DNA from: an uncultured virus (IMG/VR IMGVR_UViG_3300042939_000937)
Taxonomy: Duplodnaviria; Heunggongvirae; Uroviricota; Caudoviricetes
IMG/VR virus record: IMGVR_UViG_3300042939_000937
DNA: 64,000 nucleotides
Strand: one strand, 5' to 3'
Positions 389 through 64,000 of the stretch are shown one piece after another. A model generated the notes under the pieces. That model saw nothing but the letters and a program-made list of their open reading frames with translations, ran no database searches and was not told where the DNA came from. The number at the start of each line of letters is the position of its first letter. Position 1 is the stretch's first letter. A program made the position numbers and the translations under genes.

Positions 389-460
389 CTGGCCCGGCAG
401 AGATCGAATCTGCGACATCCTGATTAACAGTCAGGCGTTCTACCGCTGAACTACAGGCCA
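389..460 (-). tRNA. trnN: tRNA-Asn (GUU)
   Basis: Cloverleaf TGGCCTG...CGGGCCAG; anticodon arm CCTGA-CTGTTAA-TCAGG; T-loop TTCGATC. Confidence 0.93.
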
Positions 461-478
461 TTGTTTGCCTTTCGGCAA

Positions 479-560
479 TGCGAGCGAGAGGACTTGAACC
501 TCCACGGATTACTCCACTGGAACCTAAACCCAGCGCGGCTGCCAATTACGCCACGCTCGC
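479..560 (-). tRNA. trnL: tRNA-Leu (UAG)
   Basis: GCGAGCG...CGCTCGCA acceptor; anticodon arm CTGGG-TTTAGGT-TCCAG; long variable arm; GGTTCAAGTCC T-arm. Confidence 0.95.
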
Positions 561-572
561 AACCACCCTTTG

Positions 573-2496: not shown

Positions 2497-3129
2497 TTAC
2501 CCTGCTTTCGCCCATAGTTCCCCTTCGGCCTGACGCCGCCTGCGCAATCCAGCCTCAAAGGTTGTGCCGGGGTTTACATATAGCCTCAGGGCAGCGGGGA
2601 CTTGGGACCAGTTTTCTTTCTTGCTTAACGCTTTGGTAATGGTGTTGAAACCGGCACCACCGTAAAAGTGGGAACCGAGATTGTAGGCAAAAGACACTAT
2701 GGCAGCTTTCTGATTGCCATTCATTACGCCCCATGTAGGGATGCTACGAGAGAGGATCGGAACAATGGCATTCTCAATGTGGTAGTTGAGCAATTCTTCC
2801 GCTTTCGCCTTGCTGATTGAAGCATCTGATGAATTCACAAGGGTGCCATTCGGGTAGTAGGTTGTCCCGTATCCGATCGTCCAGACCCCTGCTGGACACT
2901 TGTAGGGTTGCCCGCGATAGCCTTCAAACTCTGCGATGATCTCAGCAGCTTTATCTAAATAGGTGGTGTCACCGGTCGCCCCACGGAAAACTTTCACCCA
3001 CTCTGCGCCATCATTCATTACTTGAGCAGCGTGCTTCTGCAGCAGGTCCGCCGCTTTCTTGTGGTTTGGATTCTCGTCATCGAAACTAAGGAAAAAATCT
3101 CGAAGTTTTGTGGGTTGCCAGTCGGTCAT
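2497..3129 (-). CDS. Lysozyme (GH24) endolysin with N-terminal extension
   Basis: FEGYRGQPYKCPAGVWTIGYGTT, FAYNLG, GLRRRRQAE. Confidence 0.9.
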   Translation of the reverse strand: MTDWQPTKLRDFFLSFDDENPNHKKAADLLQKHAAQVMNDGAEWVKVFRGATGDTTYLDKAAEIIAEFEGYRGQPYKCPAGVWTIGYGTTYYPNGTLVNSSDASISKAKAEELLNYHIENAIVPILSRSIPTWGVMNGNQKAAIVSFAYNLGSHFYGGAGFNTITKALSKKENWSQVPAALRLYVNPGTTFEAGLRRRRQAEGELWAKAG

Positions 3130-5917: not shown

Positions 5918-6997
5918 TCAACCGATTGCCGGAGCAGTCAGGGCGACAGGTGTGGAACTGGCTGCTGCCAGGTCAAGGGGGAAATTGTGTGCGTTCCGTT
6001 CGTGTTGAACTTCAATTCCCAGGTTGGCCCGGTTAAGGATGTCTGCCCAAGTAGGAATAACATTCCCTTGGTGGTCGAGGATTGATTGATTGAAGTTCAG
6101 CCCATTTAAGTTAACTGAGGACAATGCAATACCCATTGAAGCGCACCAAATGCCAATCACAGGGAATGCAGCGAGAAGGAAGTGCAGGCTGCGGCTGTTG
6201 TTGAAGGAGGCATACTGGAACAGGAGACGACCGAAATAGGCATGTGCTGCCACAATATTGTACGTCTCTTCCTCTTGTCCAAACTTGTACCCGTTGTTGT
6301 GAGACTCGGTTTCAGTTGTCTCTCGAATCAAGGAGCTGGTCACCAAACTCCCGTGCATGGCACTAAACAACGCACCACCAAAAACACCAGCAACTCCCAG
6401 CATATGCAGAGGATTCATTAGGATGTTATGTTCAGCGGTAAAGACAATCATATAGTTGAAAGTTCCGCTAATACCTAAAGGCATCGCATCACTAAAACTA
6501 CCCTGCCCCGAAGGATAAATCATGAACACGGCAAACGCAGCGGACACTGGAGCCATATAGGCCACAAAAATCCACGGGCGCATACCTAGATAATATGAGA
6601 GCTCCCACTGACGACCGGCATAGCAAGTGATGCCGATAAGGAAGTGGAAGACGATCAATTGAAAAGGTCCACCATTGTAGAGGAACTCATCAAGACTCGC
6701 AGCTTCCCAGATGGGATAAAAGTGCAGGCCAATCGCATTGGAACTAGGCACAACAGCAGCAGAGATGATGTTGTTGCCGTAAAGGAATGAACCAGCCACC
6801 GGCTCACGAATTCCGTCGATATCGACAGGAGGTGCGGCAATAATTGCCAGAACAAAAACGATAGCGGCAACTGACAAACATGGGATCATCAAAACCCCGA
6901 AGTTGCCAATAAAAATACGGTTGTCAGTAGAGGTTACCCAACCATTGAAACGTGCCCAGAGATTTTCAGATGGGCGTTGTAAAACAGAAGAAGCCAT
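5918..6997 (-). CDS. psbA: Photosystem II D1 protein, divergent
   Basis: [46 protein letters not shown]. Confidence 0.99.
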
Positions 6998-7100: not shown

Positions 7101-9056
7101 CTAATACTCGACCACATCGAAGAAATGGATCTTCACTGTGTTGTTGCCATAGGTGTTCACATCTGCTGGTGTGTAGCCAACGACCTTATAGCGAGCGCCA
7201 CCAGGCGTCAGTATTTCATTTTCGTGCCCGTGGCTCGAAAGTGCTTTAACGCTTGATCCCAATTTATTGAGAGTGCGGAACATGACTCGATTATTCGCCA
7301 TGCCTTTCGGACTTGTGAACGTTTTCGCAGTGTCATTGTTCGTGCTCCAGGAGTTCATAGCAGCTTCTTGAAAGGTGCCCCCGGTTTTCGCCAGGTTTTT
7401 TAAGTTATCCAGGAGATCTGCGGTTGCCGGTACACCTCGGAATTTGGGGACAGCGGGCCGATTGTTTACTGCCGTCAGAAATTCTTGAATTAGCTCTCCT
7501 TTCCTTCTATACTTTGCGATTTCCTTCTTGAGTTTATCGGCACTCATGATTTTTTCGTCTCCCCTCTCAGGTGGCCGACCTCGATAGGAGTTTCTTATCT
7601 TGGTATAGTCGTTGCCCGTAAAATTCTCCACCGCCAACAGCATTCTCTTGAGTTTGTTTTGCCCGAATTGTTTGACCAAACTTTGCACGGAAGACGGTAA
7701 TTTCTGGAGCTGGTCCTCAGATAGATGGCTGTATTTATCGTTAACTTTAACTCTGTCAAATATCTTTGCAAGTCCTTGTGTATATTTGTTGTCTTGCGCC
7801 CCTCTCAGAAGACGAAGAATCCTTGCCTCTTCTCCCTTACCTTGCTTTAAGAGTGTGCCTGGGCTTACAAAGGTTTCGGCAATGTGTTTATAATTATCGT
7901 ACCAATCCGTCGTAATCGGCTCAAAGGCTTTTTTCCATACGATCTGCTGATTTATTGAGAGACCCTGTGGATTGCTCGGAGAGTTAGGCTGCGGCTTGTT
8001 CCCTTCAGCACTTTTCACAAGGGGGGTTGGCTTATTCCCGGGACTGGGGGCGAATCCTGCAGCTTTGTTAAAGTCCTTAATGAAAGCTGGCATATCTTTG
8101 CTCTCGATCGCCATATTAAAGTTATTCTTCTTGATCCAGTCCCTGAAGAAGGTCTCTGCTTCTTCCTTTGTGAGCCCGAGTTTTTTGGCATCCTCGTAGA
8201 ATTTGTAGAAATTGCCAGAGTCATATTTATTCTCGTCGAGAGGTTTAGATCCGGCCTTAACCGGTAGTTTGGCAGGTGTTGCCCCTTGAGTGGTGGCAGC
8301 AGGTTGCGGTGCCGGTTTCGCCGCAGGAGTCACCGTCGCCGCACCAGGGGCCACTTTCGGTGCTTGCGCCTTCAGCTCGGATATCGCTTGCTTAATGTTC
8401 GCAATCGCTTTTTTGCCGTCCGTTGTTTGTGCCGCAGGACCTCCTTCTGCAAGGGGCAACGCCTTTTCCAGGAACGGTAATCCGAACGATTTGTATTTAT
8501 CGACTGTCTCAACTTTGACTACGGGTTTTGGTTTTGCAGCAGGCTGCGGTGCGGGTGCAGGGGGAGCTTTCGCCGCTGCGGCCTGTCCAGCTTCGGCTTT
8601 CAGCTGCTTCAGGGCCTCGGTCATATTGCCGACTGCCTTCTTCCCTGCCGCACTGTTCGGGTTAAACTTTGGTGAATTCTGGAGATTTTGTATGCCTTCT
8701 TCCAGCATTGCCACCCCCCACTTCTTGTAGGTCTCCACCGTGGGGATCTTATCAAGTGCCGTCTTCTTCGGGGTAGTGGCCGCAGGCTGCGGTGCGGGGG
8801 TGGCTGCAGGGGCAGCAGCCGGAGCGGGAGCGTTTTTCTTAGCCGCCTGGATCTGCGCCTTCGCTTTCGTCAACGCCGAACCCACCCAAGGTAAGTCCAC
8901 AAGGCATATCATGTTCGCAGCGATACAAGCTGCAGAGCAGTTTTTCCCCTTGGTGCATCGTTTGCGCTTGCCTCCTACCGCATTCCGCTTTGCTGCAGCA
9001 ATGCGACTTTCTTTGGGGTATAGCCCCAGCGCAAAATCAAGGACGTCCAGAGCCAT
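7101..9056 (-). CDS. Leader + Pro/Ala linker + C-terminal ADP-ribosyltransferase (R-S-E class)
   Basis: Shared 4-Cys leader; FRG...NSWST...HENEIL catalytic motifs. Confidence 0.85.
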   Translation of the reverse strand: MALDVLDFALGLYPKESRIAAAKRNAVGGKRKRCTKGKNCSAACIAANMICLVDLPWVGSALTKAKAQIQAAKKNAPAPAAAPAATPAPQPAATTPKKTALDKIPTVETYKKWGVAMLEEGIQNLQNSPKFNPNSAAGKKAVGNMTEALKQLKAEAGQAAAAKAPPAPAPQPAAKPKPVVKVETVDKYKSFGLPFLEKALPLAEGGPAAQTTDGKKAIANIKQAISELKAQAPKVAPGAATVTPAAKPAPQPAATTQGATPAKLPVKAGSKPLDENKYDSGNFYKFYEDAKKLGLTKEEAETFFRDWIKKNNFNMAIESKDMPAFIKDFNKAAGFAPSPGNKPTPLVKSAEGNKPQPNSPSNPQGLSINQQIVWKKAFEPITTDWYDNYKHIAETFVSPGTLLKQGKGEEARILRLLRGAQDNKYTQGLAKIFDRVKVNDKYSHLSEDQLQKLPSSVQSLVKQFGQNKLKRMLLAVENFTGNDYTKIRNSYRGRPPERGDEKIMSADKLKKEIAKYRRKGELIQEFLTAVNNRPAVPKFRGVPATADLLDNLKNLAKTGGTFQEAAMNSWSTNNDTAKTFTSPKGMANNRVMFRTLNKLGSSVKALSSHGHENEILTPGGARYKVVGYTPADVNTYGNNTVKIHFFDVVEY

Positions 9057-9064
9057 GCAACATA

Positions 9065-9220
9065 CTAAAAAGGAGCGTTAGGGTCTACCCCTATAAAGAT
9101 GATATCATCTGTGCTATCGCACCTTGCTTCGAAATCTTTCAGAGTCCGGCCGGACCGCTTGAAGTCTTCGGAATCTTTCCGATCTACAATTTCTTCTTGT
9201 TGCTTCTCTTTCTGTTTCAT
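9065..9220 (-). CDS. 51-aa ORF MKQKEKQQEEIVDRKD...GVDPNAPF
   Basis: Manually translated; first 9 codons shared with 12186-12335; promoter at 9273-9299. Confidence 0.6.
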   Translation of the reverse strand: MKQKEKQQEEIVDRKDSEDFKRSGRTLKDFEARCDSTDDIIFIGVDPNAPF

Positions 9221-9300
9221 GTTTATACCTGAAAGCCAGTGGTAGTAAAGAGCATCTTCGTGCTCTATTATAAGTATACCCGTTCTCTTGGAGTGTAAAC

Positions 9301-10755
9301 TTAGTACTCAACCATGTCAAAAACGTGATAGGTGCCCCCGTATTTTCCTTCTACTGTGTGGTAATCATATAGCCTGTAGTTGGTGTTGGCAGGAGTTAAA
9401 ATTTCGTTTTCTGCTGAATGGAGGCTGATTGGCCTAATAGAGGATCCCTTTTTATTTAAGGTTCGATATATGACTTGATTTGTACCATACCCATTATCTA
9501 CCCCCATGTCCGCAAAGTTTTCGGCCACTCTGGACGTTGTGCTCCACGAGTTCAGGGCGTCCTGCCTCATGGTTCCTTTGTTCTTAGCTAAGGACTTAAG
9601 TAGATTTAGTTGATCGTCACTCACAGCCACTCCTCTCGTTTTCGGAACCTGAGGTTTTGGCATAAAACTTAAGACCGCCTCGATTTCATCTGCCCTCTTT
9701 TTCCACTTCGCGATTTCTTTCTTTTTATCAGCACTCGGTAACCATTCGAAGTCTTTTGTGACCCTGTTTCGTTGAGCATTCCGAATAGCTTCATAATCCG
9801 AGTCTGAGAACTTCCGGATGTTTTTTATTCCGTTAACAACATCCTTCAAACCAAGTTTTTTTATAGCTTTCCTTACAGCAGAAACATTCGGAAGATCCGG
9901 TTCATCTCCGCTAGAGTATTCAAGCACTTTCTGCCAAGGGTTCGAAGCATCATGGGCAGCCTTCATAAGTGCATATTGTTTATGCTGCAATGTTCCCGGA
10001 GGAAAGAGGTTACCAGTGTATGGGATAATCGCTCCGACTTTATCTTCTATTCCAAAAGTGTCAGGTGTGTAAGGTTTAAACGCAGAGTTCCAAATCTGAT
10101 ATTGACCTTCGCTGAGCCCTTGCCGATTTTTTGGGGAACCCGGTGTGGCATACGGGACTTTGGAAATAGTAGGCTTCTGGTATCCCCTTGCATCTAGCTC
10201 TTGTTGAATTTGTTCAATCGCTCCCTTATATTTGACTGGGTCATTTGAGATAAAATCATTCTGGAACTTCACTAGTTTATCAGTGTCCCAGTTTGTGTAC
10301 ACGGAGGTAGCTTTTGCTGGCGCTGTCGCTGGCGGCGTTTTTGCGGCGGGAGTTGCCGCCGGTGCCGGTTTCGGTGCGGGAGTGGCTGCCGGTTTCGGTG
10401 CGGGAGTGGCAGGAGTGGCCGCAGGGGCAGCAGCCGCTGTTGGTTTCGGTGCAGGAGTGGCAGGAGTGGCCGCAGGGGCAGCAGCCGCTGTTGGTTTCGG
10501 TGCAGGAGTGGTAGCAGCGGGGGCCTTTTTCTTAGCCGCCTGAATCTGCGCCTTCGCTTTCGTCAACGCCGAACCTACCCAAGGTAAATCCACCAGGCAT
10601 ATCATGTGCGCAGCGATGCAAGCAGCCGAACAGTTCTTGCCCTTAGTACACCGTTTGCGCTTGCCTCCTACTGCATTCCGTTTTGCTGCGGCAATGCGAC
10701 TTTCTTTTGGATACAATCCTTTCGCAAAATCAAAAACAGCAGGACGCGTAACCAT
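9301..10755 (-). CDS. Leader + Pro/Ala linker + C-terminal ADP-ribosyltransferase (R-S-E class)
   Basis: Shared 4-Cys leader; TRG...NSWST...AENEIL motifs. Confidence 0.85.
   Translation of the reverse strand: MVTRPAVFDFAKGLYPKESRIAAAKRNAVGGKRKRCTKGKNCSAACIAAHMICLVDLPWVGSALTKAKAQIQAAKKKAPAATTPAPKPTAAAAPAATPATPAPKPTAAAAPAATPATPAPKPAATPAPKPAPAATPAAKTPPATAPAKATSVYTNWDTDKLVKFQNDFISNDPVKYKGAIEQIQQELDARGYQKPTISKVPYATPGSPKNRQGLSEGQYQIWNSAFKPYTPDTFGIEDKVGAIIPYTGNLFPPGTLQHKQYALMKAAHDASNPWQKVLEYSSGDEPDLPNVSAVRKAIKKLGLKDVVNGIKNIRKFSDSDYEAIRNAQRNRVTKDFEWLPSADKKKEIAKWKKRADEIEAVLSFMPKPQVPKTRGVAVSDDQLNLLKSLAKNKGTMRQDALNSWSTTSRVAENFADMGVDNGYGTNQVIYRTLNKKGSSIRPISLHSAENEILTPANTNYRLYDYHTVEGKYGGTYHVFDMVEY
10403..10504. 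repeat. 51-bp tandem duplication in the Pro/Ala linker
   Basis: Exact copies starting at 10403 and 10454, encoding a 17-aa unit. Confidence 0.85.
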
Positions 10756-10913
10756 CACATGTACGCTCCACCGAGAACGGCATCCTCGGACACTTTGCCG
10801 CTTTGACGTAGCTTCATCGCGGCTCTCAGGTATTTGTTAGCTTCTTCGTCTTCCGTGAGCCTCATTTCCTTGTACTTCGACATTAAAATCAGATACTTGT
10901 TGTCATCAGTCAT
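10755..10913 (-). CDS. 52-aa ORF MTDDNKYLILMSKYKEMR...VLGGAYM
   Basis: Starts 2 nt after the kinase stop; its stop overlaps the next start. Confidence 0.7.
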   Translation of the reverse strand: MTDDNKYLILMSKYKEMRLTEDEEANKYLRAAMKLRQSGKVSEDAVLGGAYM

Positions 10914-10914
10914 T

Positions 10915-12177
10915 TTAAGATCCCTCATAGAGAATGTTTGTGAGCTTTAGAGCATCGGCATCAGTCATTTTCGACCACGGGCCTTTTTCGTACGTGTCGA
11001 GTTTATTCTTGATTCCGGTGATGGCGACTGTTTTAATCTCGTCATCGCTATACCCCATTTTTTTCATCTCTGAGAATACTTTGGGGAGATTCTGAGAGTA
11101 AATTCGATGGAGATAAGGAGCTTCTTGAAGCAGTTTCGCGCCCGCTTTTGAATTCAACCCCATGTTCTCAGCATCCTGCAACCTGAACCCTGCAGTTCCA
11201 TTCCACTGCCTCACCTGCCAGTCCCCTTTTTGTTTACCTACCCCGGGAATGGCCGTTCCTGCAGACGGTGCCTTGAACGCTCCAAGAGCTTCGGATAGAG
11301 CAGCTTTCGGGGAATCCTGCGCAAACCCCAGGTCAATAACTGTTCCCTTCCCTTTATTGTCTACGAGAACATTATCCGAGTGCATATCATTGTGCGCGAT
11401 TCCCGTTTTGTGCAGCGCAGCTCTCGCTTTCCAGAAAGAATCGGCAGCGGTCACCCCATTTAAAGTTTGGCCAGCAACTTGCTCCGCTGGTTTTCCTTCG
11501 ACTTTAGTCATCGCAATTCTACCATCGTGCATCTGAACCGGAGCGCTGGTTTTGATGCCATTTTTCGGCCCAATTTCCGCTGCGATGAGTTTGGCAGAGA
11601 CTCCGGCATCCCCTGCTTTCTTAATGATGGCTGCTTCAGTGTCTGAGATAATACCTCGCTTCACCACGGTGCCATCTGGGTTCATAAGTACTGTACCAAA
11701 CGCTCCTTGGCCTAGTTTCTTTGTTTGAGGGTCATAGGAGTCACCCCACTTATTGAAATTGACATCACCCTCTTTACGAGCTGACGTACTGTCGAAATTC
11801 TTGTCGAACCCGTAGGCACTCTGAACATAGTAAGGAGAATTTGCGGCGGGTTTTACGTTCGGTGCCGGTTTAGGTTGAGTGGGTGCAGGAGCCGGAGCTG
11901 AGGTTGGCACCGGAGCCGGTGCAACCTTCGGTTGCGCGGCGGGAGTCGACACGCTTTGACCTGCCTTCTTCTTCTGGACCACCTGAGCAACTTTGGTCAA
12001 AGACGGCCCTGCCCAAGGTAAATCCACAAGGCAGACCATATTCGCTGCGATACACGCTGCTGAACAGTTCTTGCCCTTAGTACACCGTTTGCGCTTGCCT
12101 CCTACCGCATTCCGTTTTGCTGCGGCAATGCGACTTTCTTTGGGGTATAGGCCCATGGCAAAGTCGAGGATGCTCAT
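10915..12177 (-). CDS. Leader + linker + C-terminal protein kinase-like domain
   Basis: Shared 4-Cys leader; LGQGAFGTV, VVK, HNDMHSDN, IDLG. Confidence 0.87.
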   Translation of the reverse strand: MSILDFAMGLYPKESRIAAAKRNAVGGKRKRCTKGKNCSAACIAANMVCLVDLPWAGPSLTKVAQVVQKKKAGQSVSTPAAQPKVAPAPVPTSAPAPAPTQPKPAPNVKPAANSPYYVQSAYGFDKNFDSTSARKEGDVNFNKWGDSYDPQTKKLGQGAFGTVLMNPDGTVVKRGIISDTEAAIIKKAGDAGVSAKLIAAEIGPKNGIKTSAPVQMHDGRIAMTKVEGKPAEQVAGQTLNGVTAADSFWKARAALHKTGIAHNDMHSDNVLVDNKGKGTVIDLGFAQDSPKAALSEALGAFKAPSAGTAIPGVGKQKGDWQVRQWNGTAGFRLQDAENMGLNSKAGAKLLQEAPYLHRIYSQNLPKVFSEMKKMGYSDDEIKTVAITGIKNKLDTYEKGPWSKMTDADALKLTNILYEGS

Positions 12178-12185
12178 GGCTTTCT

Positions 12186-12335
12186 TTAATCGAAAAAGAT
12201 GGGTGCGTTTTCAGGAGTGTAATCTAAGAAGGTTACAAAATCGTTAGAACCCCTGATACCCCTTTCTTCGGGTTTCCTTTCTTGGCGTTCTCTCTCTTCC
12301 TCTGTTTTTTCTTGTTGCTTCTCTTTCTGTTTCAT
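12186..12335 (-). CDS. 49-aa ORF MKQKEKQQEKTEEE...PENAPIFFD
   Basis: Manually translated; paralog of 9065-9220. Confidence 0.6.
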   Translation of the reverse strand: MKQKEKQQEKTEEERERQERKPEERGIRGSNDFVTFLDYTPENAPIFFD

Positions 12336-12348
12336 GACGGTTACCAAA

Positions 12349-12663
12349 TCACTTTGTTTTCATTTTTGAAAGCAGCCCTTCGGCCTTTTCCATTTCTTCC
12401 GGAGTCAGCTCTCGCCCAGTCTTTTTTCGAAACGCCACTCTCAGCTTGGCCAGACGAGAACCTTCGTCTTTCAACTTTGACTTCGCTGCGGCATCAGAAA
12501 TTTGCTTGCCCTCCTGGCAAACTTCCCCAGGGCTAATTCCGTAGATTTCTCCATTCTTTTTAATGCAACGGGCAAAGTCATACACCGGACTCTCTCCAAA
12601 GTTTACACCCTCGGAGCACATTTGGTTGAATTTCTCAAGGGAATCGTCGGTGAAGTGTCCCAT
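12349..12663 (-). CDS. Hypothetical protein, possibly virion-internal
   Basis: GGGTAAAA upstream; YDFARC..G..YG...C motif. Confidence 0.7.
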   Translation of the reverse strand: MGHFTDDSLEKFNQMCSEGVNFGESPVYDFARCIKKNGEIYGISPGEVCQEGKQISDAAAKSKLKDEGSRLAKLRVAFRKKTGRELTPEEMEKAEGLLSKMKTK

Positions 12664-12876: not shown

Positions 12877-12914
12877 TTTATTCCTTTTGCCGTAGCTGTA
12901 GGGGTTTTACCCCC

Positions 12915-13412
12915 TTACTTGTGGGTTTGCAAATGACGACCCATTCCCGGGCGAGAACTTTCTTTTTTACATATGAGACAGCAGCATCTAACCGAGTTGT
13001 TCGCCAGAGTTACCGCTCTCATCAAGGGAGACTTATTATGCAGAATGTTATTCTTTTTGTTGCGTTCAATGGCGCGTTGTTTGTTTTTCTCTCTTCCCTC
13101 GGCGGTTTGAAAGTTGTGTGTCCCGTTCTCTGAGAACGTCTTTTTCTTTTTCCGTTTAACTTCTAGGCGTTTGCTAATGTTCTCCCTGCTGTGTTTTTCC
13201 AGCACCGCCTGTCTGAGATCGGATGGCAGAAGGGGCCAAGCCGACATTCTGCAATCAAACACCGGAGCATTGTCGAACAGAACATAGTCGATGGCGTGTT
13301 TTTCTGCATGCTCGTACTCTGTCAGGCACTCCAGATTCCACTCTTCATCTGCTCCCCCTCGAGACCGAGCGATGTTGTGGTGTACCTCTATTTTGTTGCC
13401 ACGATTACCCAT
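12915..13412 (-). CDS. HNH endonuclease with C-terminal CxxC...HxxxH finger
   Basis: EVHHNIARSRGGADEEWNL...EHAEKH. Confidence 0.8.
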   Translation of the reverse strand: MGNRGNKIEVHHNIARSRGGADEEWNLECLTEYEHAEKHAIDYVLFDNAPVFDCRMSAWPLLPSDLRQAVLEKHSRENISKRLEVKRKKKKTFSENGTHNFQTAEGREKNKQRAIERNKKNNILHNKSPLMRAVTLANNSVRCCCLICKKESSRPGMGRHLQTHK

Positions 13413-14116
13413 CCGCTTCCGTCTCCTTCCACTGTCCATCTTTGCGATAACATTTGTCTGCTGTATTTGAGTTTAGCCCCATTGGTTGATGTGTAAACTC
13501 CGGTGGCATTACTTAGTTCACCAAACGGGTCATTCACCACATACCACGAACCGCCGGGAGCCTTCGCATCCATCTCTTTACCAATCACAATAAGCCAATG
13601 ACCGCCCCCGCTCGGAGCCGTACTCGGCCCTTTATGAAGAATGCCAATCGGAACAGGAATCCCTTGGGCGAGGAGTGCGTCGAGAGTGGAGAAAGACATG
13701 TTTGTGGCGAAGCGGGAATTAACACCAAAGTGTTTAAGTGTCTGCACCTGAACCACCGCGTCGGTGGTGTCGCCACGCTTGAATACTTCTCGAATGTAGT
13801 CATCGTCGCCTTTGATTGAGGCGGGTTTGAGAAACTTGCACAACATCGCACAGCTGCTGCTGAAGCAAGTGCGGGCTGCACCTCGATAGTTGTCTCGTTG
13901 AGAATAGTAGGGGACGTTGAGAACCGAAGGCACTCCGGGACTATTCGTAGGTTGAGCCCTGTAAATCTGCACCCAGTTTGCGTCATCGCTTAGCAGCTCT
14001 GGTTTGAGCGCCAGAATCTCCCGATACAGATCATCGTAAGCAGCGCGATGTTTCGGGTTCGCTGCATCGGCAAACAACGCAAAATCAAAAAACTTTTTCT
14101 GATCGAACCGGGCCAT
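13388..14116 (-). CDS. Peptidase C39-like protein with N-terminal extension
   Basis: LNVPYYSQRDN, CFSSSCAM, GGHW, VVNDP. Confidence 0.85.
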   Translation of the reverse strand: MARFDQKKFFDFALFADAANPKHRAAYDDLYREILALKPELLSDDANWVQIYRAQPTNSPGVPSVLNVPYYSQRDNYRGAARTCFSSSCAMLCKFLKPASIKGDDDYIREVFKRGDTTDAVVQVQTLKHFGVNSRFATNMSFSTLDALLAQGIPVPIGILHKGPSTAPSGGGHWLIVIGKEMDAKAPGGSWYVVNDPFGELSNATGVYTSTNGAKLKYSRQMLSQRWTVEGDGSGWVIVATK

Positions 14117-16351: not shown

Positions 16352-17036
16352 ACGCCACACCTCGGAGTTCAAAAAACTTTTCTGCTGCCCATTCATTCTC
16401 CTCTTCACTCACGTTTGCCCCTTCGACGTATTTCATGAGCATCGTCATTTCTGCGTCACTCAGGGAACGTATCTGGGCGATTAGCTCAGGGGAGAGCAAA
16501 GTTGCTTTATGCTCATCGAAGCTGTAAACAAACTCCGGAGTACACCAATCCTCTGGGGAACTGTCGTAAGAAACATGGTAGTTGTTTGAGGACAACTCGC
16601 AGTACATGACCTTGGTTTCGTCAAGGCCAAGAGCCTCTGCGACTTCTGAATAAGACAGGCCTTCTTTGACTAAATCTGAAACCTGGTTCTTGTAGTTTGC
16701 AATCCAACGGGGAGTTCTCACCATTCGAGAATAATCCCGAAGAGCATGCTGTATGTAACCACGTGCCGTATTCCAGGCATAGGTGCTATACTTCACATTC
16801 ATCTCAGGTTTGTACCTGGTTGCTGCAACACAGAGGGCAAAGTTTGCGATTGATTCCAAGTCTTCTCGAGTCAACGACCCTGTGTGCCCTCCCGTCAAAC
16901 ATTTTGCCCCATACGCCAATCTGCCCGAGATCCACTTATGCTCAGCAACGAGTGCTTGTTGTTCCGGAGTGAGGCTCGGGTATTTTTTATAGCGGCGACG
17001 TGACATTTTAGGCTTCGCAGGAGAGACAGTCGGCAT
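16308..17036 (-). CDS. Sigma-70-family RNA polymerase sigma factor
   Basis: EDL...AL..AATRYKP...KYSTYAW...GYIQHALRDYSRMVRTPRW; HTH SYSEVAEALG. Confidence 0.85.
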   Translation of the reverse strand: MPTVSPAKPKMSRRRYKKYPSLTPEQQALVAEHKWISGRLAYGAKCLTGGHTGSLTREDLESIANFALCVAATRYKPEMNVKYSTYAWNTARGYIQHALRDYSRMVRTPRWIANYKNQVSDLVKEGLSYSEVAEALGLDETKVMYCELSSNNYHVSYDSSPEDWCTPEFVYSFDEHKATLLSPELIAQIRSLSDAEMTMLMKYVEGANVSEEENEWAAEKFFELRGVAYGTTEPFSDEPVAD

Positions 17037-18918
17037 AAGCTTGTTCCGTAGGTTGAACTTTAAGATTAACGTAGTCTATGTAACCGCCGATATGTTTCTT
17101 ATAGAGCCACATCTGAGGGACTGTTTTCCAGTTTGGATCCCAGTAGCCTTTTTCGATAGCTTCAGTCTTAGTAATTTCTTCGTAGCGAATGCCTTCGCTG
17201 GAGAGGAGTTCTTTCAGCTTGACGCACCACGGGCATTCGTCTTTTGTGACGATTAAGGCTGGAACAACCTTTTTGTTCGTCAGAAGCGACGAAGACTTCA
17301 GGTAGTACAGCGACTTAAGACCCATTTTCCACGCGGACAGGTGCAGACGCATGATGTAGGCAGGGTCTGATTCCGGGTCCACGAATAAGTTTAGAGATTG
17401 TCCTTGGCAGATAAACTTTTGGCGATCGGACGCTTGTTTCACCAGTTCAAACTGATCAATCTCTCGTGCAGTCTTAAACACTTCTTTCTCAGTGTCGGTT
17501 AGGCAATCAAGGTCTTGGACGCTGCCTTTGGCTTCGAGGATGCGCTCCCAAACGCTCTCGGCAATGCCTCGCTCACAGAGCAGTTTCTCGAGCACGGGGT
17601 TCTTACGAACGTAGGTGCCCTTCGCCTGCTTCGCTACGAAGTAGTTGGAGTCGATCGGCTCAATCCCTTGGCTAAACGCTCCAGAAATAACAGAGTTTGT
17701 CCGAGTAGGAGCAACAGCGAGAAGATGAGTATGGCGCATACCACTCCCAACGCACCATTCAGGCTCGCCGAATCGTTGCGCCAGTTCTCGTGAAGCAATC
17801 TCTGATTGCTCTCGGATCCAACGATGTGTTTCGATGTTGAGTTGGCGAGCGCCAGGCGAGCTGAAAGGTAATCCACGCTTCTGATACAGTGTGTGCAAAC
17901 CCATTGTCCCGAGGCCTAGCGCCCGAGACTTCTCTGCGAAACGGACTGAACGACCGAGTCCAACTTTGTCTTTTGCCTTGCGAATAAACTCGGAAACGAC
18001 TGCATCGAGGAGATGAATCGAGAGTTGGGGGACTGTACGTCCAGTAGTAGGAGATTTCCAACCACTAAACTCGTCGTACCGACTAAGATTGAGGCTGCTA
18101 AGGACGCAGACGAACGAATGATGCTCATCAGTGTGTAGAAAGATTTCTGAACAGAGGTTTGAGGTCTTGACAGAAAGGCCACGCTCGGTGTAACACTCAG
18201 GGTTCTGAGCGTTGGCGTTGTCAATGAAGACTAAGTAAGGAGAACCAGAGATCATTCTCGTCTTCAGAACTTCTCCGAAGAGTTCTTGTTTCTCACTATC
18301 CCCGGCGATCATGGACTCGACCCATTCATCGGTGATTGTCAGGGCAACGTTCGAGTCAACAAATTTTCTAGGATCACCCTTGGAATGGTCCTTAGCGCGT
18401 AGCAACTCTGGGACATCGGGGTGATCGATCGGGAGATAGATTGCGAACGATCCGCGACGTACTCCACCTTGTGAGACGACTCGTGCCGCAAGATCATATT
18501 GCTGCGCCCAGGGTACAATGCCGGTCGACTTCCCACCGCCGCTAATCGGAGCGCCGGCAGGACGGACATCGCCAAAATAAACGCCAACACCGCCTCCATT
18601 TTTACTCAGTTGTGATACTTCTTTTAAATGACTGTAAATCGAAGAGACGGAGTCACTAAGATGGACGGAGTAGCAGGAGATTGGTAACGCCCTCGTTGTC
18701 CCGAAGTTGGCCGCAACTGGCGAGGATAACCCTAACCACCCGTTCCATAGGCACGTAAACAGATCGTCAAGTAGTGTAGGGTCGTCGTTGATTGCCGCAG
18801 CCGCCTTAGCCACCCTTTGAAACATTGCACGGGGAGTTTCTCCTGGCAGTAAGTAACCTGCCGATAAAGTGTGCAGGCCCTCCTCAGAGAGCCAGTCGGG
18901 AGCAATGGGTTCTGTCAT
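17008..18918 (-). CDS. nrdA: Class I ribonucleotide reductase alpha subunit with inserted glutaredoxin domain
   Basis: PISC, SNLCSEI, APT, CQGQSLN, KSLYY; then CPWC...TVPQ...IGGY; terminal CLSCEA. Confidence 0.95.
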   Translation of the reverse strand: MTEPIAPDWLSEEGLHTLSAGYLLPGETPRAMFQRVAKAAAAINDDPTLLDDLFTCLWNGWLGLSSPVAANFGTTRALPISCYSVHLSDSVSSIYSHLKEVSQLSKNGGGVGVYFGDVRPAGAPISGGGKSTGIVPWAQQYDLAARVVSQGGVRRGSFAIYLPIDHPDVPELLRAKDHSKGDPRKFVDSNVALTITDEWVESMIAGDSEKQELFGEVLKTRMISGSPYLVFIDNANAQNPECYTERGLSVKTSNLCSEIFLHTDEHHSFVCVLSSLNLSRYDEFSGWKSPTTGRTVPQLSIHLLDAVVSEFIRKAKDKVGLGRSVRFAEKSRALGLGTMGLHTLYQKRGLPFSSPGARQLNIETHRWIREQSEIASRELAQRFGEPEWCVGSGMRHTHLLAVAPTRTNSVISGAFSQGIEPIDSNYFVAKQAKGTYVRKNPVLEKLLCERGIAESVWERILEAKGSVQDLDCLTDTEKEVFKTAREIDQFELVKQASDRQKFICQGQSLNLFVDPESDPAYIMRLHLSAWKMGLKSLYYLKSSSLLTNKKVVPALIVTKDECPWCVKLKELLSSEGIRYEEITKTEAIEKGYWDPNWKTVPQMWLYKKHIGGYIDYVNLKVQPTEQAYADCLSCEA

Positions 18919-21992: not shown

Positions 21993-22328
21993 TCATCGCT
22001 TTACCTCCTGCATCGAGACTTCAATGGGTTTAAAATAATCAATTAGAACTTGCATTCCCTTTTTGGAATCCATCGTGCCGCATGTGTATACGTCGATGGC
22101 GCAAGAACCGCTTTCGGGGAAAGTGTGGATGCTGATATGGCTCTCGGCCAAAGCATACACGATCGTAACACCTTGCGGATGAAACTGATGCGAGAATCTG
22201 TTGAGCACAGTGGCTCCGCACACTTCGACGGCACGTTCGAATGCGGCTTTGATTCCTGCAAGATCATCCAACAAAGAGAAAGAGATCCCATAAAGTGATA
22301 CTAAAACGTGGTGTCCCAATGCATACAT
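21993..22328 (-). CDS. speD: S-adenosylmethionine decarboxylase proenzyme
   Basis: F.PQGVT...LAESHISIHTFPE...DVYTCG. Confidence 0.93.
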   Translation of the reverse strand: MYALGHHVLVSLYGISFSLLDDLAGIKAAFERAVEVCGATVLNRFSHQFHPQGVTIVYALAESHISIHTFPESGSCAIDVYTCGTMDSKKGMQVLIDYFKPIEVSMQEVKR

Positions 22329-41958: not shown

Positions 41959-42711
41959 ATGACCCTCGGCAGAGAGACTTTCGGACTAACCAAATCTGAG
42001 TTTGGCCAGAAGATATCGAGAATAATTGGTAACTTTCGGTCCAACAGTAAGCTAATCGGCGAACCCCGTGATTTCATCATCCGATGCTGCAAGTTGACAG
42101 AGCAATGGGGGAAACTGGCGTCGGACCCTGAGACCACAGTTTACTTGCGTAGTATAGACATTGCCGGGGGTCGTAAAATAAAAATGGTGAGTTTGGAGCG
42201 TGCTGGAACGAAACAACCGGTGCCCAAACAAAAACTTGTAGATGCTCTCTATCCGCCCCGAAAGATAGCGACGACAGCGACAATCGAGGAAAAACACTTC
42301 AACCAAGTGCGTATAGCAATGCGCCACGCGATTTACTATCAACTTCAGGCCTACAGAAACTGCTGCCAATTGCCTGTGATCTGTCACATAAGTGGCAAGA
42401 AAATAATCCCTGGGTCCAAATCAGACGTAGATCATGTGGGTTTGACGTTTTCAGAAATCTCAGACAATTTCATTCGAGAGAGAAATCTGAAATACTCGGA
42501 CATTGTTCTTGTTGGGCCGCCGACTGCCAAGCGATTTAAAGACACCAAACTCTGGGAAGAGTGGACCCACTACCATTTGCAACACGCCCGTTACGCTCTC
42601 GCCTTTGCATCCGCCAATCGCAGTGCAGGGGCAAAGGGTTACCACACCAACCCTGAACTTTTAGGGTCTTTTGCTAAAAGCAACCCTGAAGATATTAGCT
42701 TAGAATTTTAG
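41959..42711 (+). CDS. Putative nuclease (DCL/DUF3223-like plus His-Me-like motifs)
   Basis: AMRHAI, CHISG, DVDH...F, W..YH. Confidence 0.5.
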   Translation: MTLGRETFGLTKSEFGQKISRIIGNFRSNSKLIGEPRDFIIRCCKLTEQWGKLASDPETTVYLRSIDIAGGRKIKMVSLERAGTKQPVPKQKLVDALYPPRKIATTATIEEKHFNQVRIAMRHAIYYQLQAYRNCCQLPVICHISGKKIIPGSKSDVDHVGLTFSEISDNFIRERNLKYSDIVLVGPPTAKRFKDTKLWEEWTHYHLQHARYALAFASANRSAGAKGYHTNPELLGSFAKSNPEDISLEF

Positions 42712-43481
42712 TTCACCCGGACTCTGTTTTTCGGGTCAATGCCACGAGCCTTTTGCCAGTTCGTCAACCCAGCCGGAGTAGAGACATGGGCGGGAAACCT
42801 TTCGTCGGTGTTCATAAATCTCATCTCATTGACTATTTTGCCCCCCTTATTGCCTCCCGCCCTGCCTCCCACGGCGCCCCATTCTTTTTTCAAATGCTGT
42901 AATTCCGGGTTATGAATTCCCTTTTTCTCAGCCATGAGTTTTGCTGCAGCCAAAGGCCCTTGTTTTTTACCGCATTTGACTTGAGCTTCTTTGATTTTCT
43001 CTTGGTGAATGGGATTGAAAATTCCTCGCCCCTCCTCGTATGTTCTTATGCCGTTTAAGCGTTGGAACTCAGGATCAAAAATCCCTCTACGTTCTTTAAT
43101 GAGTTTTCTCAGGGCGGTTTGGCGAATTTCTTTCATTCCCTCTTTCCAGAAACCTCGCTTGAGTGCAACATTAAGGTTACCTACTCTTCTGGTCGCTTCC
43201 AACGAGAAAACACACCCACAGGCTTGGTTTAAGCAAAAGGAGTTATTCAGGTCGGGCATGATTAAACGTTTTTCTACTTGGCGTGCTTGCTCCCAACCTT
43301 CAGAACTGTAGGCAAACAACTCAAGAATCTGAACTTTTGGTGTGTAAAACTCCCACGCCCACTTGTGCGTAGAGGGTGAACCCAAATACTTCTCTCCAAA
43401 CTTCTTTTCCTTATGAACTCCCCAATACCAGTAGGGTACTTCTTCAAACGTAATCTTGTACGTATAAATACGCGGTTGCAT
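42708..43481 (-). CDS. GIY-YIG-like (Seg-type) homing endonuclease
   Basis: IYTYKITF...YWGVH...YLGSP...E..LI...CLN. Confidence 0.8.
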   Translation of the reverse strand: MQPRIYTYKITFEEVPYWYWGVHKEKKFGEKYLGSPSTHKWAWEFYTPKVQILELFAYSSEGWEQARQVEKRLIMPDLNNSFCLNQACGCVFSLEATRRVGNLNVALKRGFWKEGMKEIRQTALRKLIKERRGIFDPEFQRLNGIRTYEEGRGIFNPIHQEKIKEAQVKCGKKQGPLAAAKLMAEKKGIHNPELQHLKKEWGAVGGRAGGNKGGKIVNEMRFMNTDERFPAHVSTPAGLTNWQKARGIDPKNRVRVN

Positions 43482-43561
43482 AATACTGTTGGCGATTGGG
43501 CGGGCAAGTATGTGGCCCAGGTCGCCAAACCTAAACACATACTTACCTGTAAGGTTTTACC

Positions 43562-58513: not shown

Positions 58514-58568
58514 CTTTACTTCTCTGACGCAGGCATATACATGGTTTTACCCTGCCGTTGTACGTGAC

Positions 58569-59855: not shown

Positions 59856-59912
59856 GAATCAACCGCTGTCTCTGTATGAGTGGTTTTACCCCTTGTTGAG
59901 TGTTTCGACAGG

Positions 59913-63998: not shown

Positions 63999-64000
63999 GG

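What the first reader, a model, noticed from the sequence alone, without database searches (positions are those of the whole stretch)
7101..12335. Polymorphic effector cassette: one conserved 4-Cys leader fused to ADP-ribosyltransferase or kinase payloads, just upstream of psbA
Seen: three tandem genes share the ~50-aa leader DFAxGLYPKESRIAAAKRNAVGGKRKRCTKGKNCSAACIAAxMxCLVDLPW (C-x5-C-x3-C-x6-C). It is almost identical in protein but carries many synonymous DNA differences. A Pro/Ala linker of variable length follows, then a C-terminal enzyme: ART, ART, kinase. Established: a constant N-terminus with a variable toxic C-terminus defines polymorphic toxin systems (e.g. phage MuF toxins); T4 Alt is a capsid-packaged, injected ART; T7 gp0.7 is a host-takeover kinase. 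Inference: the basic, probably Zn-binding leader is a capsid-packaging or DNA-tethering signal that delivers interchangeable protein-modifying enzymes into the cyanobacterial host. I do not recognise this arrangement as a described cyanophage system.
Basis: partly seen in the sequence, partly recalled or inferred. Interest (0 to 1): 0.92.

Follow-up and report, generated by a model that had tools for sequence, protein, structure and literature searches.

The report
Conserved four-cysteine tag on cyanophage enzymes
Three neighbouring cyanophage genes carry the same short four-cysteine start fused to different host-modifying enzymes; the same start is found on hundreds of uncultured phage proteins and may be an undescribed signal for loading enzymes into the virus particle.

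Summary
Three minus-strand genes (10915-12177 kinase, 9301-10758 ART, 7101-9056 ART), directly upstream of psbA, share a 51-residue leader. The leader has 1-2 residue differences per pair, while its synonymous sites are nearly saturated (dS 0.74-1.0, dN/dS 0.02-0.04). Their payloads are only 33% identical or unrelated.

The leader is an N-terminal module with no Pfam or PHROG family. Its core is C-x-[KR]-G-K-x-C-x3-C-x(5-7)-C. It occurs on 356 50%-identity protein clusters, always at the N-terminus and once per protein. It was not found in the scans of cellular genomes.

Partners among 235 proteins: 81 ART, 37 kinase, 41 HNH-like, 2 nucleotidyltransferase-like, a 54-member unknown family, and fusions. 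Related phages carry different payloads at the same locus.

The one cultured carrier, Synechococcus phage S-CBWM1, has five copies. Three are the kinases that a later paper says were detected in its virions, and a fourth is annotated as a virion structural protein.

Best reading (about 0.55): a capsid-loading tag for injected takeover enzymes, analogous to the T4 capsid-targeting sequence. Packaging, zinc binding and enzyme activity remain untested, and the strict polymorphic-toxin label is not supported.

The parts
10915..12177 (-). g420: leader, Pro/Ala linker and protein-kinase-like domain (420 aa)
   Evidence: ORF. Pfam APH E 5.5e-6 (26.8 bits, cut-off 23.2) and Pkinase E 1.1e-6 (28.7 bits, below the 31.7 cut-off). 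K173 and E181 conserved in 37/37, H262/D264/D282 in 36/37 and N269 in 34/37 leader-bearing kinases. The kinase domain is 30-37% identical to cyanomyovirus kinases.
12013..12177 (-). Leader of g420 (residues 1-55; Cys32, 38, 42, 49)
   Evidence: In A5 (149 sequences) G27, C32, G35, C38, C42 and C49 are invariant.
9301..10758 (-). g485: leader, 89-aa Pro/Ala linker, helical region and ADP-ribosyltransferase domain (485 aa)
   Evidence: R375, S404, E450 and E452 invariant in 64/64 sequences. Family profile vs PDB: Vis toxin 8.6e-18, then Tre1, HopU1, Vip2, ExoT, SpvB. AF2 mean pLDDT 81.9, mostly above 80 from about residue 150 on (one 10-residue block at 71). Foldseek top matches Vis, Certhrax, HopU1, C3.
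10579..10758 (-). Leader of g485 (residues 1-60)
   Evidence: repeat family D1.
7101..9056 (-). g651: leader, three Pro/Ala linkers around two ~50-aa helical repeats, and ADP-ribosyltransferase domain (651 aa)
   Evidence: C-terminal 290 aa are 33% identical to g485. Weak Pfam ADPrib_exo_Tox (E 0.063). Member of A4 with the R/S/ExE columns invariant. Internal repeat 34% identity, E 3e-10.
8886..9056 (-). Leader of g651 (residues 1-57)
5918..6997 (-). psbA (photosystem II D1), immediately downstream of the cassette
   Evidence: Pfam Photo_RC E 3.6e-84. The flank is conserved in relative L012, where a different leader gene abuts psbA.
12280..12336 (.). 57-nt repeat copy upstream of g420. It covers the start of a 53-aa ORF (12186-12347) that contains MKQKEKQQE at residues 5-13.
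   Evidence: the repeat finder family D6, 77% identical to 9165-9221. ORFs. The two small ORFs are not significantly similar as proteins.
9165..9221 (.). 57-nt repeat copy upstream of g651. It covers the start of a 51-aa ORF (9065-9220); a sigma-70-like site lies at 9320-9292 (-).
12349..12663 (-). 104-aa ORF forming the conserved upstream border of the variable locus
   Evidence: Homologous DNA flanks the leader gene in L012 (67.8% identity) and L039. No Pfam or PHROG family.

Best explanation
The shared N-terminus is a self-contained targeting module found, so far, only in phage and metagenome sequence. It has a short helix ending in A-V-G-G, then a basic four-cysteine core (K/R-x-C-x-[KR]-G-K-x-C-S/G-A-A/T-C-I-x5-C-L-V). 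The core probably needs a metal ion or a binding partner to fold. A flexible Pro/Ala spacer connects it to an enzyme.

Proposed mechanism (inferred):
1. Late in infection the tag docks the enzyme onto a conserved internal component of the assembling capsid.
2. The enzymes are carried in the virion and enter the cyanobacterium with the DNA.
3. There the arginine-type ADP-ribosyltransferases and kinase-like enzymes modify host proteins at the very start of infection, as T4 Alt and T7 gp0.7 do.

The locus upstream of psbA is a swap site. The tag is kept under strong purifying selection while payloads are exchanged, duplicated or fused between related phages.

Shown here: the architecture, the selection on the leader, intact catalytic residues, the module's distribution and strictly N-terminal position, and payload turnover at a syntenic locus.

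Inferred: packaging, ejection, metal binding, and the enzymes' targets.
For: (1) Selection acts on the protein, not the DNA. dS is 0.74-1.01 against dN 0.017-0.030 among the three copies. The ART payloads are only 33% identical.

(2) The module is widespread and positionally fixed. There were 583 proteins at E<=1e-3 among 8000 scored candidates and 356 50%-identity cluster representatives, 169 of them at <=1e-10. The strict Cys pattern was present in 237 of 237 collected proteins. It occurred once per protein, starting at residue 22-68, in the 120 of 120 checked.

(3) Cargo is mostly enzymatic. Of 235 proteins with at least 60 aa after the tag: 81 ART, 37 kinase, 41 HNH-like, 2 cytidylyltransferase-like, with 5 fusions counted twice. 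ARTs, kinases, GNATs and nucleotidyltransferases are the protein-modifying domain classes listed for phage polyvalent proteins predicted to be capsid-delivered (PMC5512222, passages).

(4) Several tagged paralogues occur per genome: 3 here; 5 in S-CBWM1; 2 each in G002, G003, L002 and L039.

(5) S-CBWM1 gives an independent link to virions. The strict motif occurs exactly 5 times in its six frames: gp106, gp113 (RIO-like), gp161 (ChoK-like), gp162 (APH-like) and gp174. [quoted passage not shown] The fourth kinase, PknB-like gp173, has no tag and is not named in that passage.

(6) Payloads turn over at the same locus. Relative L012 (~70% nt identity in the flanks) has one 1460-aa tag + triple-kinase gene between the same flanks. 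L039 has a tag-ART-kinase fusion plus a tag-ART gene.

(7) The module was not found in 185,579 species genomes in two pattern scans. That fits a virion or lytic-phage role rather than a cellular one.

(8) A precedent exists. [quoted passage not shown]
Against: - There are no virion data for this phage or its close relatives.
- The S-CBWM1 evidence is second-hand. Xu et al. 2018 is not held. The citing authors themselves caution that abundant regulatory proteins may co-purify with virions (PMC10665884 and PMC9602691 passages).
- Tagged gp106 is annotated only 'hypothetical protein'.
- The tag is not needed for virion association elsewhere. The S-TIM5 virion protein homologous to the HNH-like payload has no Cys tag. 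The virion kinases of S-CRM01 and S-CREM2 gave no leader match. The NMNAT reported in S-CBWM1 virions (PMC9602691) carries no tag, because only five motif sites exist.
- AF2 gave the leader no confident fold: mean pLDDT 62 alone and 53-75 in the full-length model.
- The three genes sit among psbA, RNR, sigma-factor and lysis-like genes, not in a head module.
- 54 of 235 tagged proteins belong to a family with no established enzymatic fold.
Confidence: 0.55

Rival explanations
1. The tag is a host-directed targeting or nucleic-acid-binding domain. After ordinary expression in the infected cell, the basic Cys4 module brings the enzymes to DNA, RNA, RNA polymerase, ribosomes or a membrane. Any virion presence is incidental.
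For: The core is strongly basic (GGKRKRCTKGK) with four invariant cysteines. It also sits on an HNH-like nuclease class (41 of 235) encoded next to terminase and PhoH. The window genes lie among non-structural genes.
Against: It does not explain why the module is always at the extreme N-terminus and single-copy. It does not explain why the S-CBWM1 kinases bearing it are the ones reported from virions. There is no match to any solved DNA-binding or zinc domain: the only PDB hit is a lysozyme at E 0.016.
Confidence: 0.2
2. The tag is a regulatory module, either an oligomerisation domain or a redox/metal switch. It keeps potentially toxic enzymes inactive or clustered until the right moment. It has no role in trafficking.
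For: There are four invariant cysteines. Three of them (i, i+4, i+11) would lie on one face if the segment were helical, and small residues surround them (read from the sequence). AF2's failure to fold the isolated monomer fits a partner- or metal-dependent structure.
Against: The payloads are unrelated folds (ART, kinase, HNH-like, nucleotidyltransferase-like), which are unlikely to share one inhibitory mechanism. The long flexible Pro/Ala spacers argue against direct intramolecular control.
Confidence: 0.1
3. This is a classical polymorphic toxin system, like phage MuF toxins. The proteins would be exported or released to kill competing bacteria, each paired with an immunity gene.
For: It has a constant N-terminus with variable C-terminal enzyme domains, and payload exchange at one locus. 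Small ORFs lie between the genes.
Against: No MuF or other known trafficking domain was found (Pfam at E<=0.1). The small intergenic ORFs have no family (10755-10928 scanned; the others unscanned). L012's 72-nt gap upstream of its leader gene leaves no room for one. No relatives were found in cellular genomes or prophages. MuF toxins belong to temperate phages (PMC5576092, title and abstract start only).
Confidence: 0.03
4. The shared stretch is mainly a recombination handle: DNA homology kept by gene conversion so that cassettes can be shuffled. The protein segment itself would have no function.
For: A 218-nt three-copy direct repeat lies at the 5' ends of tandem genes. Payloads are swapped among relatives.
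Against: Synonymous sites are close to saturation while the protein is almost invariant. The same peptide is conserved at 60-90% identity across hundreds of otherwise unrelated proteins.
Confidence: 0.02

Closest known systems
T4 capsid targeting sequence (CTS) on internal proteins, and the packaged ADP-ribosyltransferase Alt
   Same: A short conserved N-terminal tag on otherwise diverse proteins loads them into the prohead, and they are injected with the DNA. A packaged ART modifies host proteins (PMC3012670 passage; PMC5512222 passages).
   Different: The T4 CTS has not been compared with this leader here, so no homology is claimed. As I recall it, the T4 tag is about 10 residues, has no cysteines, binds the scaffolding core and is cut off by the prohead protease. 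Here the tag is 30-55 residues with four invariant Cys. Its partner is unknown, as is whether it is cleaved.
MuF polymorphic toxins of temperate phages (PMC5576092; PMC12226406)
   Same: A constant N-terminal phage-head-associated domain is fused to variable C-terminal toxin or enzyme domains. PHROG 16619 'minor head protein' matches the ART part of g485 (E 6.8e-10).
   Different: No MuF domain was found. No immunity genes were recognised. The module was found only in phage and metagenome sequence and not in cellular genomes. For both papers I saw only the search listing and the start of the abstract.
Polyvalent proteins of phages and conjugative elements (Iyer et al. 2017, PMC5512222)
   Same: The payload repertoire overlaps (ART, Ser/Thr-type kinase, nucleotidyltransferase). 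Delivery with the invading DNA is predicted, and cassette-like variability is noted (passages).
   Different: The three window proteins carry one catalytic domain each. Only relatives are truly multi-domain: L012 at 1460 aa with three kinase stretches, and L039 and P0003 with ART+kinase. That paper has zero occurrences of 'cysteine', 'cyanophage' or 'Synechococcus', so it does not describe this tag.
Virion-associated protein kinases of cyanophages (S-CBWM1, S-CRM01, S-TIM5, S-CREM2)
   Same: g420's kinase domain is 30-37% identical to these phages' kinases. The S-CBWM1 APH-, ChoK- and RIO-like kinases carry the same Cys4 core at their N-termini and are reported from virions (PMC10665884 passage).
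   Different: The papers I could read treat these as individual kinases and do not mention a shared N-terminal motif. The GenBank starts of gp113 and gp161 even cut the motif off. The T4-like cyanophage kinases gave no match to the motif.
Encapsulin cargo-loading peptides (recalled, no call)
   Same: A short terminal peptide docks diverse enzymes to the inner face of an HK97-fold shell.
   Different: It is usually C-terminal, has no cysteines, and acts in a cellular nanocompartment rather than a virion. This is an analogy only and was not tested.

Membership tests
R-S-E mono-ADP-ribosyltransferases (C3/Vip2/Vis-like; Pfam PF03496 ADPrib_exo_Tox) | Catalytic Arg, Ser-Thr-Ser and Glu-x-Glu motifs | tested here: met
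   R375, S404, E450 and E452 of g485 are invariant in 64/64 aligned leader-bearing ARTs, g651 included.
R-S-E mono-ADP-ribosyltransferases (C3/Vip2/Vis-like; Pfam PF03496 ADPrib_exo_Tox) | Significant sequence or profile match to known members | tested here: met
   The single window proteins fall below Pfam's cut-off: g651 13 bits vs 23.4, g485 no hit. The family profile hits Vis toxin at 8.6e-18, Tre1 at 3.3e-9 and HopU1 at 3.6e-9. An iterated HMM started from the window type converges on the same 81 proteins as one started from a classical PF03496 member.
R-S-E mono-ADP-ribosyltransferases (C3/Vip2/Vis-like; Pfam PF03496 ADPrib_exo_Tox) | ART fold | tested here: met
   In the AF2 model, residues 150-485 have pLDDT mostly above 80 (one 10-residue block at 71). 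Foldseek vs PDB: Vis 4.2e-9, Certhrax, HopU1, C3, ExoS, Vip2, all at probability 1.00.
R-S-E mono-ADP-ribosyltransferases (C3/Vip2/Vis-like; Pfam PF03496 ADPrib_exo_Tox) | NAD+-dependent ADP-ribosylation of a substrate | not testable with these tools
   Needs an enzyme assay.
Protein-kinase-like superfamily (Pkinase / APH / RIO) | Gly-rich loop, beta3 Lys, alphaC Glu, HxD catalytic loop with Asn, DxG motif | tested here: met
   In the 37 leader-bearing kinases: G161 34/37, K173 37/37, E181 37/37, H262 36/37, D264 36/37, N269 34/37, D282 36/37.
Protein-kinase-like superfamily (Pkinase / APH / RIO) | Pfam match above the curated cut-off | tested here: met
   APH 26.8 bits against cut-off 23.2. 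Pkinase 28.7 is below its 31.7 cut-off, and RIO1 19.6 is below 22. Whether the substrate is a protein or a small molecule stays open. No PDB hit by single sequence.
Polymorphic toxin systems / MuF toxin family | Constant N-terminal trafficking domain with variable C-terminal toxin domains | tested here: met
Polymorphic toxin systems / MuF toxin family | MuF (or another known trafficking) domain at the N-terminus | tested here: not met
   Neither Pfam at E<=0.1 nor PHROGs at E<=0.01 has any family covering the leader.
Polymorphic toxin systems / MuF toxin family | Cognate immunity gene next to each toxin | tested here: inconclusive
   Only small ORFs of 51-68 aa lie between the genes. The one scanned (10755-10928) has no family; the others were not scanned. 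The two that share a 57-nt repeat are not significantly similar as proteins. L012's 72-nt gap upstream of its leader gene leaves no room for one.
Polymorphic toxin systems / MuF toxin family | Encoded by bacteria or temperate prophages | tested here: not met
   No relative was found in one genome for each of 185,579 species, in two pattern-based scans.
T4-type capsid targeting sequence cargo | Short conserved N-terminal tag shared by diverse cargo proteins of one phage | tested here: met
   3 tagged genes here and 5 in S-CBWM1. This is a likeness in how it works, not homology.
T4-type capsid targeting sequence cargo | Cargo present in purified virions | tested here: inconclusive
   The only evidence is a literature passage about S-CBWM1 kinases (PMC10665884) and the GenBank label of gp174. 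The primary paper is not held. Nothing is known for the window phage.
T4-type capsid targeting sequence cargo | Tag removed by the prohead protease | not testable with these tools
   Needs N-terminal peptide mapping of the virion proteins.
Polyvalent proteins (Iyer et al. 2017) | Two or more effector domains in one polypeptide | tested here: not met
   Each window protein has one catalytic domain. Relatives do meet this feature: P0003 and L039 with ART+kinase, and L012 with three kinase stretches.
Structural zinc-binding mini-domain | Four invariant metal-ligand residues in a short span | tested here: met
   C32, C38, C42 and C49 are invariant in 149/149 sequences. The strict pattern is present in 237/237.
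Structural zinc-binding mini-domain | Confident compact fold, or similarity to a known zinc domain | tested here: not met
   AF2 mean pLDDT is 62, with no regular secondary structure across the Cys region. The profile vs PDB gave only a lysozyme at E 0.016. Metal binding itself cannot be tested here.

The most novel reading that the evidence does not exclude
The four-cysteine leader is a portable capsid-loading and injection tag used by a large, mostly uncultured clade of aquatic cyanophages. Any protein that begins with it is packed into the virion and delivered with the DNA. If so, the set of injected effectors (ARTs, kinases, HNH-like nucleases, nucleotidyltransferases and a large unknown family) could be read directly from sequence. 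The tag could also be used to load foreign proteins into cyanophage particles.
Probability: 0.4. Interest if true: 0.8.

Novelty: new variant of a known kind. Interest (0 to 1): 0.64.

Why it matters
How phages other than T4 choose which non-structural proteins to carry in the capsid is largely unknown. Cyanophage virion proteomes repeatedly turn up kinases, nucleotidyltransferases and nucleases without any explanation of how they get there.

A sequence-readable tag would:
- turn scattered proteomic observations into a predictable 'injected effector' set for an ecologically important group of phages;
- give a directly testable packaging signal in a cultured system (S-CBWM1 on Synechococcus CBW1002);
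- flag a large family of unknown proteins as probable early-acting effectors against cyanobacteria.

It also corrects two likely mis-called gene starts in the S-CBWM1 record.

Tried and rejected
- Own-genome search: no genome is held for this window.
- Earlier findings of this scan: nothing by sequence, words or place.
- Megablast of the locus against 50,697 phage records: no match.
- tblastn of the ART domain against phages: no match.
- Leader profile against PDB sequences: only an invertebrate-type lysozyme at E 0.016, taken as chance.
- AF2 of the leader alone with 149 sequences: mean pLDDT 62. I judged this too poor for a fold search and ran none on it.
- Complex prediction of a G002 portal + Zn + that phage's own leader: 'no answer', score 0.30 against the 0.34 mark, controls not run. 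This is evidence neither for nor against binding.
- The 54-member unknown payload family. Profile vs PDB gave nothing significant (best 0.017, a designed helical repeat). Pfam on 30 members at E<=1 gave no recurrent family. ESM Atlas structural rows point to GNAT acetyltransferases at TM 0.44-0.65, all 'under the bar', on a model with pLDDT 0.60. I keep this only as a lead.
- Double-glycine (C39-peptidase) leader idea. It was prompted by the invariant A-V-G-G and by the C39-like neighbour at 13388-14116. I dropped it because the hydrophobic spacing does not fit the recalled consensus, the neighbour matches endolysin PHROGs at 5.5e-75, and the S-CBWM1 kinases lack the GG part.
- Signal-peptide or lipobox reading of the basic + hydrophobic stretch: rejected by inspection (up to about 60 conserved or extra residues precede it, and there is no lipobox). 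No predictor was available.
- Xu et al. 2018, the primary S-CBWM1 paper: not held.
- PMC7472177, PMC10452541, PMC9964418 and PMC7824862: nothing on the motif or on virion kinases of S-CBWM1 in the passages I searched.

Full report
**What is there.** The window is a cyanophage fragment.
- It encodes psbA (Photo_RC, E 3.6e-84), a ribonucleotide reductase, two sigma-factor-like proteins, a primase, a tape-measure-like protein and several tail-fibre proteins.
- No head genes were recognised in the window.
- Nothing in 50,697 phage records resembles the locus at the DNA level.
- On the minus strand, directly upstream of psbA, lie three genes: g420 (10915-12177), g485 (9301-10758) and g651 (7101-9056).
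- All three begin with DFAxGLYPKESRIAAAKRNAVGGKRKRCTKGKNCSAACIAAxMxCLVDLPW.

**Selection on the leader.** Over these 51 codons the copies differ at 2.0-3.5 non-synonymous but 16.5-19.8 synonymous positions per pair. This gives dS 0.74-1.01, dN 0.017-0.030 and dN/dS 0.02-0.04, with 85-88% DNA identity. The peptide is therefore held by selection on the protein, not by recent duplication or gene conversion. In the direction of transcription the order is kinase, ART, ART, psbA.

**The payloads.**
- *Linkers.* Behind the leader come Pro/Ala-rich linkers of 39 aa (g420) and 89 aa (g485). g651 has three linkers separating two ~50-aa helical modules that are 34% identical to each other (E 3e-10).
- *ARTs.* g485 and g651 end in a ~290-aa region only 33% identical between them. 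Pfam barely sees it (ADPrib_exo_Tox E 0.063 for g651, nothing for g485).
  - In an alignment of 64 leader-bearing relatives, the columns R375, S404, E450 and E452 are invariant.
  - The profile of that alignment hits the arginine ADP-ribosyltransferase Vis at 8.6e-18, then Tre1, HopU1, Vip2, ExoT and SpvB.
  - An AF2 model (mean pLDDT 81.9; residues 150-485 mostly above 80) finds Vis, Certhrax, HopU1 and C3 by Foldseek at probability 1.00.
  - These are R-S-E type mono-ARTs with intact catalytic residues.
- *Kinase.* g420 matches APH above Pfam's cut-off and Pkinase just below it. It keeps the Gly loop, K173, E181, H262-x-D264, N269 and D282, conserved in 34-37 of 37 leader-bearing kinases. 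Its substrate class is open.

**The leader is a widespread N-terminal module with no described family.**
- A search with residues 1-66 found 37 proteins of 231-735 aa, among 84 candidates.
- A 10-sequence leader profile found 583 proteins at E<=1e-3 among 8000 scored candidates of 133-2000 aa.
- The same profile found 356 representatives of 50%-identity clusters among 1.84 billion proteins, 169 of them at <=1e-10.
- All 237 proteins that I collected hold C-x5-C-x3-C-x(5-7)-C.
- In the 120 examined at the time it occurs once, starting at residue 22-68.
- In 149 diverse sequences G27, C32, G35, C38, C42 and C49 are invariant.
- A shorter form, just M-x-K-R-C-T-K-G-K-S-C-G-A-T-C-I-x5-C at the very N-terminus, also exists.
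- Neither Pfam (E<=0.1) nor PHROGs (E<=0.01) has a family for it, and no solved structure resembles it in sequence.
- Two pattern-based scans of one genome for each of 185,579 bacterial and archaeal species found no relative. These scans depend on a few back-translated motifs, so absence is not absolute.

**What the leader is fused to.** I tallied the 235 proteins that have at least 60 residues after the leader. This set mixes 90%- and 50%-identity cluster representatives, some cut by contig ends, so the numbers are not abundances. Iterated HMMs labelled them as follows:

| Payload | Proteins |
|---|---|
| ART | 81 |
| Kinase | 37 |
| HNH-like class of ~470 aa | 41 |
| Cytidylyltransferase-like | 2 |
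| Counted twice as fusions | 5 |
| Unlabelled | 79 |

- The five fusions are ART+kinase (P0003, P0105), ART+nucleotidyltransferase (P0094), and one each of ART or kinase with the HNH-like region.
- Catalytic columns were checked for 64 of the 81 ARTs and for all 37 kinases. The other 17 ARTs rest on the HMM alone.
- Of the 79 unlabelled proteins, 54 form one family, 7 fall in three small clusters and 18 are singletons.
- The 54-member family has a helical Lys/Glu-rich middle and a conserved C-terminal domain (…VNGSY…GDGxG..R.AY..GF). Nothing in PDB sequences or Pfam explains it. ESM Atlas structural neighbours are GNAT acetyltransferases, but below the tool's own bar, so this is a lead only.
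At least four enzyme classes are found, 156 of 235 proteins carry a recognisable enzyme-type domain, and about a quarter are unresolved.

**Payload turnover at the same locus.**
- L038 and L075 are the window's own genome (100% and 99.97% identity).
- L037 is 93-95% identical and has the same three genes, but lacks the HNH endonuclease ORF at 12915-13439. L042 lacks it too.
- L012, from a 68.5-kb IMG/VR contig whose flanks are about 70% identical, has the same upstream neighbour (the homologue of 12349-12663) and psbA downstream. Between them sits a single 1460-aa gene: the leader followed by three kinase-like stretches.
- L039 has a leader-ART-kinase fusion of 743 aa followed by a leader-ART gene.
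- The locus behaves as a cassette site where the leader stays and the payload changes.

**The link to virions.**
- Among 50,697 cultured-phage records, only Synechococcus phage S-CBWM1 matched the leader.
- Its genome holds the strict motif exactly five times in six frames (profile hits):
  - gp106, an HNH-like protein right after terminase and PhoH, the same synteny as IMG/VR loci L001-L003;
  - gp113, a RIO-like kinase;
  - gp161, a ChoK-like kinase;
  - gp162, an APH-like kinase;
  - gp174.
- gp174 is annotated 'virion structural protein' and lies between the portal/peptidase genes and the major capsid gene.
[quoted passage not shown] These are exactly the three tagged kinases.
- The fourth kinase, PknB-like gp173, has no tag and is not named there.
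- I could not read the primary paper, so this is second-hand.
- The same authors warn that abundant proteins may simply co-purify.
- The HNH-like payload is also homologous to a protein of S-TIM5 annotated 'virion structural protein and packaging'. That protein has no Cys leader.
- The NMNAT reported from S-CBWM1 virions (PMC9602691 passage) is untagged. The tag is therefore neither the only route into particles nor required in other lineages.

**How it most likely works.** I think the leader is a capsid-loading tag (confidence about 0.55). It would dock diverse enzymes to a conserved internal capsid component during assembly. The Pro/Ala spacer would keep anchor and cargo apart. The enzymes would then enter the host with the DNA and act before any phage gene is expressed.
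- The payload classes partly match the protein-modifying domains listed there for capsid-delivered polyvalent proteins: ARTs, kinases, GNATs and nucleotidyltransferases.
- The steps from 'tag' to 'packaging', 'ejection' and 'host target' are inference.
- The structure of the tag is unresolved. AF2 predicts a helix before the A-V-G-G, no regular structure through the cysteines, and low confidence. This fits a metal- or partner-dependent element but proves nothing.
- Rivals are: a host-directed or nucleic-acid-binding domain (0.2), a regulatory or oligomerisation switch (0.1), a classical toxin-immunity system (0.03), and a mere recombination handle (0.02, largely excluded).

**Comparison with what is known, and novelty.**
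- *Not a MuF toxin.* It has no MuF domain, no immunity gene was recognised, and it has no prophage context.
- *Not, in this window, a polyvalent protein.* Each window protein has one catalytic domain, although relatives are multi-domain.
- *Works like a T4 CTS.* I did not compare it with the T4 sequence, and I claim no homology.
- *Literature.* I found no description of the motif in searches for S-CBWM1, cyanophage + ADP-ribosyltransferase + virion, S-TIM5 + virion + kinase, and cyanophage + virion-associated + kinase + cysteine. The polyvalent-protein paper and the jumbo-phage paper do not mention it in the passages I read.
- These searches cover only the open-access library. Xu et al. 2018 and its supplements, which I could not see, might mention it.
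- I rate it a new variant of a known kind: a new, very widespread tag family for a known strategy.

Noticed in passing
window 12915-13439 (-): The HNH endonuclease ORF (Pfam HNH E 0.0075; phrog_2214) is a presence/absence polymorphism. The stretch 12877-13397 is missing from the 93-95% identical relative L037 and from L042, as expected of a mobile homing endonuclease.
   Followed up: partly
window 9165-9221 and 12280-12336: A 57-nt direct repeat (77% identical) lies about 110-160 nt upstream of g651 and g420 but not g485. It covers the starts of two small ORFs that share the N-terminal stretch MKQKEKQQE (at residue 1 of the 51-aa ORF, residue 5 of the 53-aa ORF). A TTGACA-17-TACACT promoter-like site sits at 9320-9292 (-). 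Whether it is a small gene or a regulatory element is unknown.
   Followed up: partly
S-CBWM1 MG450654.1, gp113 (annotated start 70464) and gp161 (annotated start 117887): The annotated starts cut off the Cys4 motif. In-frame upstream ATG codons give N-termini MSKRCTKGKSCGATCI... and MGKNCSKGKSCGSACV.... The GenBank starts are probably mis-called.
   Followed up: partly
window 13388-14116 (-) and 2497-3129 (-): There are two separate endolysin-like genes. The first matches phrog_10051 at 5.5e-75 with weak Peptidase_C39_2 and C70 hits. The second matches phrog_7 at 2.5e-38.
   Followed up: no
window 42708-43538 (-) and 50330-51157 (-): Two paralogous homing-endonuclease-like genes (phrog_314, about 1e-8 each) lie beside the DNA-polymerase genes and inside the tail-fibre region.
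   Followed up: no
window 21993-22328 (-); 17008-18918 (-): An S-adenosylmethionine decarboxylase-like gene (phrog_3125, 1.2e-35), and a ribonucleotide reductase large subunit with a C-terminal glutaredoxin domain.
   Followed up: no
window 389-561 (-): Two tRNA genes: Asn-GTT and Leu-TAG.
   Followed up: no
window 54001-64000: G+C rises from about 0.49 to 0.54-0.59, with strong positive GC skew, across the large tail-fibre genes.
   Followed up: no
L012 / G001 (IMG/VR contig, 68,565 bp): CheckV rates this relative of the window phage as only 31% complete. The lineage may therefore have a genome of roughly 200 kb. No S-CBWM1-like portal was found on the fragment.
   Followed up: no
L026 5394-6074 (+): A 226-aa protein with the short Cys4 tag has no enzyme domain and a Gly/Ala-rich hydrophobic C-terminal half. 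It lies in an S-CBWM1-like contig near a tagged kinase. It may be a non-enzymatic cargo or a membrane-active protein.
   Followed up: no
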